Below, piece by piece: positions 39,001 to 42,000 of a DNA stretch of 44,448 nt (position 1 is its first letter; every line of letters begins with the position of its first letter). This stretch comes from a virus. Lineage: Duplodnaviria; Heunggongvirae; Uroviricota; Caudoviricetes. The position numbers are program-made. The stretch lies in the IMG/VR virus record IMGVR_UViG_2851949629_000004; one strand, written 5' to 3'.

Positions 39001-42000
39001 TAGCCAAGCCAGTACCGGTGGTGCCAGATGTTCGTCCGTCTTTAAATAATGGCATAGTCGGTTTTGATGAAGGCTGGAACGCCTGCCGCGCCGTCATGCT
39101 TCATGGTGCCGAACCTGTAAGCCAGACTTACAAGTTGAACGTAAGCGTCAACGGAGCACCGTATTGACGCTTATTTATTAGTGAGTACTACGTTCCATGG
39201 CAGGAGTTCGTCAACTCGGTTGGAAGGCCATTCCGGCAGTACGCTCAGGATATGGCGCAGATACGCTTCCGGATCGATACCATTCAACCGGCAGGTGCCG
39301 ATCAGCCCGTACAACAGTGCACCACGCTCGCCGCCGTGATCGCTACCGAAGAACACGTAATTTTTCTTTCCGAGACAGACTGCACGAAGCGCTCTTTCCG
39401 CTGTGTTATTGTCCGCCTCCGCCAGACCGTCATCACAGAAGTTGCACAACGCAACCCAGTGCTTCCTGATATACCGGAACGCATCTCTCAGACGGCATTT
39501 TTTCGATAACGTGTGTTCTTTCTCCTGCATCAGCTTATACAGGGAAGTCAGTAGCGGTTTACTCTGCATTTGCCTGACCGCCAGGCGTTCAGACACCGGC
39601 AACCCGCGTATTTCGTGCTCAATGGCGTACAGTTCGCCGATTAGTTTCAGTGCTTCTTCCGCCGTCGCGCTTTTGGTACTGATATATACATCGTGGATTT
39701 TGCGCCGCGCATGAGCCCAGCATCCTGCTTCCGTCAACGCGCCGCCTTCACGTTCGGCACTGAACAGCCGATCGTAACCTGCGAACGCATCTGCCTGCAG
39801 GATACCCCGGAAGGGACGAAGGTGTTGCTCCGGATGTTTACCCTGATGGTCCGGTGAGTAGGCGAACCAGACCGCCGGAGGTTCTGGCGAACCGGCATTT
39901 CGGTCATCCCGGACATACGTCCAGATATATCCTGTTTTCGCCTTCTTCCTGCCCGGTGCCAGTACTTTTACTGGTGTGTCATCAGTGTGAACCTTGCGGG
40001 TGTTCATCACATAACTGTACAGGGCATCATTCAGCGGAGTCATTAACTGGCAGCACGCATCAACCCAGTTGGAGAGTAAGGCACGGCTCAGTTCGACACC
40101 CTGGCGGGCAAAGATTTCACTCTGACGATACAGTGGCAGGTGTTCGCAGTATTTTCCCGTTAACACGCGGGCAAGTAACCCCGGGCCCGCGATACCACGC
40201 TCTATCGGACGGGATGGTGCCGGTGCTTCAACGATGCAGTCACATTTTGTACAGGCTTTTTTTACCCGTTCTGTGCGGATCACTTTCAGGGCGCTGCTCA
40301 CCAGCTCCAGTTGTTCTGCGCTGACTTCCCCCAGATAATCCAGCTCACCGCCACACTCCGGGCAACAGCTTTCTTCAGGCTCCAGGCGGTATATTTCACG
40401 GGGGAGATGTGCCGGTAACGGACGACGATGGCGCGACTGTCGCAACTGGCGGGGAACCAGCGGGTCATCCTCACGCCCACTGTAACGATCGCTTTCCTGC
40501 TCGCGTTGTTTCAGCAGGACTTCAGCCTGTTCAACCTCACTACGCAGTTTTTCAGAACGGGTTCCGAACAGCATCCGGCGCAGTTTTTCTATCTGAGCCC
40601 GCAGATGCTCTATTTCTCGCTCATCTTCTTCGATCTTTTCTTCGGCACGTGCCAGTGCAGAGCGCAGGAAGGCCTCCGTCTCTTCAACCAGACTCAGTTG
40701 CTGGTCTTTCTGACGGAGGGCTTCAGCCTGCTCAGAGAGCAGCCTTTCCAGCTCAGCGATGCGAATGAGGTATTTCTGACCCATGGCCGTTTTTATAATC
40801 CGGCCCGGCGTTTTTTACAACATTGTCAGTGCGTTAAGGCGGGATGTTTTTGGCTGACGCCAGTCCAGCTTATCGAGGAGCATTGCCAGTTGCGAGCGGG
40901 TAATGGATATCTTACCGTCATGCACCGCAGGCCAGATAAACTGACCTTCCTCAAGGCGTTTGGTGAACAGGCACAGACCATCAGCATCAGCCCACAGGAT
41001 TTTAATCGTGTCTCCCCGTCGGCCACGGAAGATAAACAGGTGACCGGAGAAGGGGTTATCATCCAGCACATGCTGTATCTGCTCCCCCAGACCGTTGAAG
41101 GATTTACGCATATCAGTAACGCCGGCAACGAGCCAGATACGGGTACCTGATGGGAGTGAAATCATCGTCCCCTCCCGGTCAGCTCACGGATCAACACCGT
41201 GAGCAGCTCTGGTGAAGGATTTTCCAGCATCATTTTACCGTAATGGAATTCCACATGGCAGGAAGCTGCACAAGCAACTGATAATGCCTCCGGAGCAGGA
41301 GCATCTGTAGCACAGCGCGGGGTGTCGATAAGTTCCACTGGAACCAGAGTCGGAGAGGCCGGAAAAGATTGTGATACTGTAGGGCCTACAATAGTTGGAG
41401 GCATTCTACGAGAAATACGTCCTTCTCTTTGCCAGAGGCGTAGCCATTTAAAAATCAGGTTGTTATCAACGCCATGTTCCCGGGCCAGTTGTGCAACATT
41501 GGCATTTGGTTTCGAAGCCAGTTCAACCATATGAAGTTTAAATTCATTAGAAAATATCCGGCGGGTTCCGGAGCGCCAGTCTGTAGGTTTATCCATCAAT
41601 AGAACTCCGTCTAATTTAGAAGGAGCTCTAATTTAGTCTGCAAGGAGCAGGTGTTACAGACGGCATTGGCTTTACGCTTACAGTTGAACAAGCTGTCGGG
41701 CAACCCTCCGGTAACTCCGGATGGTTGGATAAGCTGTAGTGAGCGAATGCCAGAGGACGGTCAGCACGTAATTATTTTATGTGATGGCGCATTCGTTCTT
41801 TATGCGCAATATCGAGACGGTGAGTTTTTTGATGTTGTCCGCAGTGGTGAGGAGTTCTTCGAAACGCAGAGCCGCAATGTAACCCACTGGATACCGCTAC
41901 CGGAGCCGCCGCAGGAGGTAAATTAATGAACAACTTAATGACAACAAAACAAGTCGCCGAATTCTGTGGCGTTTCAATATCGACGGTGCTTCGCTGGAAC

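What the first reader, a model, noticed from the sequence alone, without database searches (positions are those of the whole stretch)
39133..41689. IS66-family insertion with perfect 8-bp target duplication splits a DUF551-type early gene
A 2541-bp element with GTAAGCGT termini and three IS66-type ORFs is flanked by the direct repeat AGTTGAAC on both sides. The duplication is in the same codon phase, so removing the IS and one copy restores a single roughly 204-aa ORF whose C-terminus matches the DUF551-like end of the neighbouring paralog. The insertion is therefore recent and may polar-affect downstream genes.
Basis: seen in the sequence. Interest (0 to 1): 0.45.

Follow-up and report, generated by a model that had tools for sequence, protein, structure and literature searches.

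The report
ISEc43 insertion splitting a prophage gene
A well-known E. coli jumping gene (the IS66-family element ISEc43) has recently landed inside an accessory gene of a lambda-like prophage, just upstream of the excision gene; this is real but ordinary.

Summary
Window 39141-41681 is a 2541-bp IS66-family element flanked by a perfect 8-bp target duplication (AGTTGAAC). It has GTAAGCGT termini (inverted repeat 15/22) and three intact minus-strand genes, tnpA, tnpB and tnpC.

It is 100% identical over its full length to copies that NCBI's annotation labels ISEc43. Two of those copies share exactly the same ends but carry different 8-bp duplications.

Removing the IS and one repeat copy restores a 203-aa DUF551 gene. 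That empty site exists at 100% identity in 11 complete E. coli genomes. One of them matches 6,496 bp around the site with one mismatch and no gap.

The occupied junction was found in none of 5,426 complete E. coli genomes and in no phage record. The insertion is therefore recent and private to this strain.

The host is a lambdoid prophage at the prfC/yjjG site. The split gene follows yfdP-Q-R-S in the early-left operon, and its stop codon overlaps the start of the excisionase gene. A polar effect on xis is plausible but untested.

Verdict: a known element at a new site, of low interest.

The parts
39133..39140 (.). Left copy of the 8-bp target-site duplication, AGTTGAAC
   Evidence: Present once at the empty site in 11 genomes.
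39141..41681 (-). Complete ISEc43 (IS66 family), 2541 bp, with its genes on the minus strand
   Evidence: 100% identity over 2541 bp to copies annotated as ISEc43 family. The same ends are seen at two other loci.
39141..39162 (.). Terminal inverted repeat at the tnpC-proximal end (GTAAGCGTCAACGGAGCACCGT). It overlaps a perfect 10-bp hairpin, 39142-39151 / 39164-39173
39171..40784 (-). tnpC, the IS66-family DDE transposase, 537 aa, intact
   Evidence: PF03050 E 7.9e-96, plus the zf-IS66, LZ_Tnp_IS66 and IS66_C domains. NF033517 scores 448 bits against a cut-off of 180.
40815..41165 (-). tnpB, the IS66 accessory protein (Orf2), 116 aa
   Evidence: PF05717 E 3.1e-36. NF033819 scores 118.9 bits against a cut-off of 50.
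41162..41596 (-). tnpA, the IS66 accessory helix-turn-helix protein, 144 aa from the ATG (145 aa from the TTG at 41599). It overlaps tnpB by ATGA
   Evidence: PF01527 E 1.9e-10. ATGA overlap shown. The PGAP CDS in identical copies is 435 nt.
41660..41681 (.). Terminal inverted repeat at the tnpA-proximal end (ACGGCATTGGCTTTACGCTTAC)
41682..41689 (.). Right copy of the 8-bp target-site duplication, AGTTGAAC
38766..39167 (+). 5' fragment of the split gene: 125 native codons, then 8 codons (VSVNGAPY) and a stop codon supplied by the IS end
   Evidence: No Pfam hit on its own. phrog_5117 and phrog_660 match the N-terminal part of the restored protein.
41690..41926 (+). 3' fragment of the split gene, encoding the DUF551 domain. 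It stays in frame with a GTG at 41651 inside the IS
   Evidence: PF04448 E 8.5e-21, 75 bits against a cut-off of 22. Frame and upstream sequence.
41926..42120 (+). Excisionase gene (64 aa). Its ATG overlaps the stop codon of the split gene (TAATG) and it has its own AGGAGG ribosome-binding site. It is the gene exposed to polarity
   Evidence: phrog_1553 excisionase, E 5.9e-35. Overlap shown. Annotated as excisionase in phages 2H10 and cdtI.
38404..38766 (+). YfdS-like neighbour (120 aa), a distant DUF551 relative of the split gene
   Evidence: phrog_583 E 8.1e-82. DUF551 scores 21.3 bits, below the 22-bit cut-off. BLASTP 23% identity over 53 aa, E 5e-4. PGAP names it yfdS in relatives.

Best explanation
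A complete, apparently functional copy of the known IS66-family insertion sequence ISEc43 transposed recently into a 203-aa DUF551 gene of a lambdoid prophage.

Shown by the evidence:
- The prophage sits at the prfC/yjjG site in its closest relatives.
- The split gene lies in the early-left operon after yfdP-Q-R-S and directly upstream of xis.
- The insertion made the 8-bp target duplication typical of the family.
- The gene is cut after codon 125, giving a 133-aa product that ends in 8 IS-encoded residues.
- The DUF551 domain and xis are now separated from the upstream operon by 2.5 kb of IS read in antisense.

Inferred, not shown:
- The DUF551 protein is inactivated.
- Transcription reaching xis from the early-left promoter is reduced, because 2,759 nt lie between the premature stop codon and the xis ATG, which allows Rho-type polarity. 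Prophage excision may therefore be impaired.
For: Anatomy:
- Repeat, ends and ORFs.

Identity:
- 100% identity over 2541 bp to ISEc43-labelled copies on pB4103-1 and on the MB06101 and TW10573 chromosomes. 258 E. coli records hold copies at 99% identity or more.
- Identical copies elsewhere end at the same bases and carry other 8-bp duplications, GATTATTG and TCGCATTG.
- ISEc43 flanked by an 8-bp direct repeat is reported in PMC6531882.

Empty site:
- 11 complete genomes are 100% identical over the 1178-nt rebuilt site. It is annotated as one DUF551 CDS, WP_052939667.1, 612 nt.
- With the IS removed, 6,496 bp match strain 120899 with 1 mismatch and 0 gaps.
- More distant relatives, including phages 2H10 and cdtI, span the site in about 1180 nt with no insertion.

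Recency:
- The occupied junction is in 0 of 5,426 complete genomes and in 0 phage records.
- The truncated protein is not on record.

Polarity:
- The downstream gene is an excisionase.
- Its start overlaps the stop codon of the split gene.
- No promoter-like site lies on the plus strand between the IS and xis.
Against: Nothing argues against the identity of the element.

Against the inferred consequence:
- The promoter and terminator scan is crude, and its counts equal chance expectation.
- xis has its own strong AGGAGG ribosome-binding site, so any read-through or outward transcript from the IS would still be translated.
- Lambdoid early operons are often antiterminated, which suppresses polarity (general knowledge; not tested here).
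- The ISfinder reference sequence for ISEc43 could not be consulted, so the name rests on PGAP labels.
Confidence: 0.96

Rival explanations
1. The insertion is real but has no functional effect on the prophage. xis is still transcribed adequately, by antiterminated read-through or from a promoter within or near the IS end. The DUF551 gene is dispensable or is backed up by the YfdS-like neighbour.
For: - xis keeps its own AGGAGG ribosome-binding site 8 nt upstream of its ATG.
- In CPS-53, yfdS and yfdT substitute for each other in the multicopy suppression assay, and deleting yfdQRST gave no phenotype in the replication or hydroxyurea tests (PMC4776307).
- A GTG at 41651 preceded by AAGGAG could restart translation of a stand-alone DUF551 domain.
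Against: - 2,759 nt lie between the premature stop codon and the xis ATG.
- No promoter-like site was found on the plus strand after 41062.
- The spacer between AAGGAG and the GTG is only 3 nt, which is poor for initiation.
Confidence: 0.45
2. The IS-containing arrangement is ancestral or old, and the empty sites in other genomes arose by precise excision or recombination.
For: None specific. IS elements can occasionally be lost precisely through their target duplications.
Against: - The uninterrupted gene is present in 363 genomes, and in phages at 94-100% identity across the site.
- The occupied junction is found in none.
- The IS is 100% identical to copies elsewhere and its duplication is perfect.
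- The flanks differ from an empty-site strain by 1 base in 6,496.
Confidence: 0.01
3. Assembly artefact: a repeat-induced misjoin placed an IS copy here.
For: ISEc43-like sequence is multi-copy in E. coli, with a median of 3 places per genome, and repeats do cause misassemblies.
Against: A misjoin would not create a perfect 8-bp duplication of the target at the exact IS termini. It would not leave both halves of the gene in the same codon phase either. Both junctions are base-exact compared with other copies.
Confidence: 0.02

Closest known systems
ISEc43 (IS66 family) as annotated in E. coli chromosomes and plasmids, e.g. NZ_CP024248.1 25769-28309
   Same: 100% nucleotide identity over all 2541 bp, with the same three genes and the same termini. 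The 8-bp duplication matches what was reported for ISEc43 in SGI1-B-Ec1 (PMC6531882).
   Different: Only the insertion site. This junction is absent from 5,426 complete E. coli genomes.
Uninterrupted DUF551 gene WP_052939667.1 of the prfC/yjjG prophage in E. coli strain 120899 (NZ_CP025916.1 1543711-1544322)
   Same: The rebuilt ORF and its surroundings are identical. The 1178-nt site matches at 100%, and 6,496 bp match with 1 mismatch.
   Different: That strain has one copy of AGTTGAAC and no IS. The rest of the prophage is 95-98.5% identical.
CPS-53 yfdP-yfdQ-yfdR-yfdS-yfdT cluster of E. coli K-12, and DUF551-bearing exo-xis proteins such as Ea22 variant 2 of Stx phages
   Same: Same gene order, yfdP, yfdQ, yfdR (HD 5'-deoxynucleotidase) and a yfdS-like gene, upstream of the split gene. 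The split gene has a portable C-terminal DUF551 domain in an early gene next to xis (PMC10834534; PMC4776307).
   Different: The split gene occupies the yfdT slot but carries DUF551, which K-12 YfdT is reported to lack. No Ead_Ea22 coiled-coil signature was detected. Homology to yfdT itself was not tested.
IS-mediated inactivation of prophage genes in E. coli, e.g. IS629 in O157 prophages (recalled from memory, not checked here)
   Same: An IS lands in a prophage gene and may contribute to prophage decay.
   Different: A different IS family. No defect in this prophage has been demonstrated.

Membership tests
IS66 family of insertion sequences | DDE transposase of the IS66 type (TnpC) | tested here: met
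   PF03050 E 7.9e-96 with the zf-IS66, LZ and C-terminal domains. NF033517 equivalog scores 448 bits against a cut-off of 180.
IS66 family of insertion sequences | Two upstream accessory genes, tnpA (helix-turn-helix) and tnpB (IS66 Orf2). tnpA and tnpB overlap, and tnpC follows after a short gap | tested here: met
   PF01527 and PF05717 hits. NF033819 scores 118.9 bits against a cut-off of 50. ATGA overlap and a 30-nt gap. TnpA scores 68 bits against the NF047595 cut-off of 74, just below it.
IS66 family of insertion sequences | Imperfect terminal inverted repeats beginning GTAAGCG (the family definition is from general knowledge of ISfinder) | tested here: met
   GTAAGCGT at both ends, with 15 of 22 positions matching.
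IS66 family of insertion sequences | 8-bp target-site duplication | tested here: met
   AGTTGAAC here. GATTATTG and TCGCATTG at two other identical copies. An 8-bp direct repeat is reported in PMC6531882.
ISEc43 (a named element) | Near-identity to the ISfinder reference sequence (the usual rule for an isoform is above 95% nucleotide identity) | not testable with these tools
   ISfinder is not available. As a proxy, the element is 100% identical to copies whose transposase PGAP names 'IS66-like element ISEc43 family transposase'.
DUF551 (PF04448): the interrupted gene | Score above Pfam's gathering threshold | tested here: met
   75 bits against a cut-off of 22, E 8.5e-21, covering the full 68-position profile. 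PGAP names the intact gene a DUF551 domain-containing protein.
DUF551 (PF04448): the neighbouring 'paralog' at 38404-38766 | Score above Pfam's gathering threshold | tested here: not met
   21.3 bits against a cut-off of 22, which is borderline. Both proteins hit phrog_924, phrog_6925 and phrog_7704, and BLASTP gives E 5e-4. Distant homology of the C-terminal domains is therefore likely.
Phage excisionase: the downstream gene at 41926-42120 | Match to an excisionase family, and a position next to the integrase | tested here: met
   phrog_1553 E 5.9e-35 over the full length. Weak HTH_17/MerR N-terminal hits. The tyrosine integrase is at 43225-44448. The NCBIfam Xis_Gifsy_1 model scores only 21 bits against a cut-off of 60.

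The most novel reading that the evidence does not exclude
Because the IS sits antisense between the early-left operon and the overlapping xis gene, it may uncouple excisionase expression from prophage induction. That would lock an otherwise intact lambdoid prophage into the chromosome, an observable first step of prophage domestication. Alternatively, the IS end may supply a start (AAGGAG, then a GTG at 41651) that yields a stand-alone DUF551 domain.
Probability: 0.3. Interest if true: 0.2.

Novelty: already known. Interest (0 to 1): 0.08.

Why it matters
It matters little beyond annotation. The two ORFs at 38766-39167 and 41651-41926 should be annotated as one IS-disrupted pseudogene, not as two genes.

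The junction is a strain-specific marker that could be used for typing.

If the polar effect on xis is real, this prophage would induce but excise poorly. That would affect predictions of whether it can still be mobilised.

Tried and rejected
- Looked for the source strain, or any other carrier of the same insertion. A 1-kb junction query found nothing in the complete E. coli genomes or in phage records. An exact look-up of the truncated 133-aa product also found nothing.
- Scanned for promoters and terminators in and around the IS. Counts equal chance expectation, and no plus-strand promoter-like site lies between the IS and xis. This cannot settle the polarity question.
- Considered a target-site preference because CTTAC precedes the target. 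The two other copies examined do not show it, so I treat it as chance.
- Considered whether the neighbour is a true paralog. The support is only weak.
- Scanned the restored protein and the AT-rich neighbouring ORF against PADLOC. No meaningful hit.
- Two run_python calls failed because locus files were not yet on disk. get_sequence calls replaced them.

Full report
**Observation**

The 8-mer AGTTGAAC is at 39133-39140 and again at 41682-41689. The sequence between the copies, 39141-41681, is 2541 bp. It begins GTAAGCGT and ends ACGCTTAC.

The direct repeat is exactly 8 bp and does not extend further. The terminal inverted repeat matches at 15 of 22 positions. An identical 8-mer at both exact ends has a chance probability of 1.5e-5. 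The only other copy of the 8-mer in the window is at 38562.

**The element**

Three ORFs fill the minus strand.
- 41162-41596 is a helix-turn-helix TnpA (PF01527, E 1.9e-10).
- 40815-41165 is the IS66 Orf2/TnpB accessory protein (PF05717, E 3.1e-36; NF033819, 118.9 bits against a cut-off of 50).
- 39171-40784 is a 537-aa IS66-type DDE transposase. It hits PF03050 at E 7.9e-96, with the zinc-finger, leucine-zipper and C-terminal IS66 domains, and NF033517 at 448 bits against a cut-off of 180.

tnpA and tnpB overlap by ATGA. tnpC follows after 30 nt. This is the classic IS66 layout.

The whole 2541 bp is 100% identical to copies on plasmid NZ_CP024248.1 and on the chromosomes of strains MB06101 and TW10573. 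PGAP calls their transposase "IS66-like element ISEc43 family". 258 E. coli records hold copies at 99% identity or more.

Two of the identical copies end at exactly the same bases but are flanked by different 8-bp duplications, GATTATTG and TCGCATTG. This fixes the boundaries independently of this locus. It also shows that 8 bp is this element's duplication length, in agreement with the published report of ISEc43 in SGI1-B-Ec1 (PMC6531882).

**The interrupted gene and the empty site**

Both repeat copies lie in codon position 2. Removing the IS and one copy gives a 203-aa ORF. Its C-terminal 64 residues are a full-length DUF551 domain (E 8.5e-21, 75 bits).

A 1178-nt query built from the joined flanks matched 11 complete E. 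coli genomes at 100% identity in a single piece. It matched 363 genomes over at least 80% of its length. In strain 120899 the site is annotated as one 612-nt CDS, WP_052939667.1, "DUF551 domain-containing protein".

With the IS removed, 6,496 bp from the repressor gene to the integrase gene align to that strain with one mismatch and no gap. The rest of the prophage is 95-98.5% identical.

More distant relatives also span the site in about 1180 nt without an insertion. They include phages 2H10, cdtI and Ayreon and several Stx2c phages.

**Recency**

A 1-kb query centred on the left junction found no record covering it among 5,426 complete E. coli genomes or 50,697 phage records. The truncated 133-aa product, with its IS-encoded tail VSVNGAPY, is not on record in the large protein collection.

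Four facts together point to a recent, strain-private transposition:
- the duplication is perfect;
- the IS is 100% identical to other copies;
- the flanks are nearly identical to an empty-site strain;
- the occupied junction was found nowhere else.

**Context**

The window is a lambdoid prophage. In its closest relatives it lies between prfC and yjjG.

The minus strand carries the tail, head, terminase, lysis, Q and replication genes. The plus strand carries, in order:
- a LexA/CI-type repressor at 35137-35811;
- yfdP, yfdQ and yfdR (an HD 5'-deoxynucleotidase);
- a 120-aa YfdS-like gene;
- the split gene;
- a 64-aa excisionase gene at 41926-42120 (phrog_1553, E 5.9e-35).

The integrase gene (43225-44448) is on the minus strand.

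The split gene therefore occupies the slot after yfdS in a cluster studied in CPS-53. There, YfdR binds DnaA, and either yfdS or yfdT together with yfdQR inhibits replication initiation when overexpressed (PMC4776307).

DUF551 is described as a portable domain, also present in Ea22 variant 2 of Stx phages. Its function is unknown (PMC10834534).

**Consequences (inferred)**

The gene is cut after codon 125. The DUF551 domain is left in frame with a GTG at 41651 inside the IS. That GTG is preceded by AAGGAG, but with only a 3-nt spacer, so independent expression is doubtful.

The stop codon of the split gene overlaps the xis ATG (TAATG), and xis has its own AGGAGG site.

After the premature stop codon at 39167 there are 2,759 nt before xis, most of it IS read in antisense. 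The simple scan finds no promoter-like site on the plus strand between the IS and xis.

Reduced xis expression and poorer excision are therefore plausible. They could be offset by antitermination or by weak outward transcription. I put the chance of a substantial effect at about one in three. It needs the experiment listed under next steps.

**The "paralog" claim**

The neighbour at 38404-38766 resembles the C-terminus of the restored protein only weakly.
- BLASTP gives 23% identity over 53 aa, E 5e-4.
- Its DUF551 score is 21.3 bits, just under the 22-bit threshold.
- Both proteins hit phrog_924, phrog_6925 and phrog_7704.

Distant homology of the domains is likely. "Paralog" overstates it.

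**Verdict**

This is a known insertion sequence at a previously unrecorded site in a common prophage gene. That is useful for correct pseudogene annotation and as a strain marker, but not surprising. Novelty: already known. Interest: low.

Noticed in passing
window 42121-43224 (ORF 42256-43074, minus strand): An AT-rich island (35.5% GC against 51.5% for the window) lies between xis and int. It holds one 272-aa ORF with no Pfam, PHROG or NCBIfam match, only sub-threshold PADLOC hits (REase_II, E 1.2e-3), and no relative in the PDB. The position is typical of a prophage moron or defence gene. The same gene is annotated 'hypothetical' (WP_052939666.1) in strain 120899.
   Followed up: partly
window 39142-39151 / 39164-39173: A perfect 10-bp hairpin with a 12-nt loop sits at the tnpC-proximal end of ISEc43. 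It overlaps the terminal inverted repeat and the tnpC stop codon. It could be a terminator or a transposase-end structure.
   Followed up: no
window 41651-41926 (+): A hybrid ORF starts at a GTG inside the IS right end, preceded by AAGGAG with a 3-nt spacer. It reads out through the inverted repeat into the intact DUF551 domain, giving 91 aa. A gene caller may report it as a separate gene.
   Followed up: partly
window 41926-42120 (+); L001 3974-4304: The 64-aa excisionase gene (phrog_1553, E 5.9e-35) is not annotated by PGAP in the empty-site relative, strain 120899. It is annotated in phages 2H10 and cdtI.
   Followed up: no
window 1810-1980 and 5761-6681, compared with L004: Against the closest complete-genome relative, the tail-fibre and host-specificity (gpJ) region is the most divergent part of the prophage. 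It is 95-97.5% identical, with two unaligned stretches. The xis-int end has no mismatches (one alignment gap at the junction).
   Followed up: no
window 35812-36497; L004 37257-37944: About 690 bp between the repressor gene and yfdP carry no annotated gene in the relative. This is where an early-left promoter and a possible N-like antiterminator would be expected, which bears on the polarity question.
   Followed up: no
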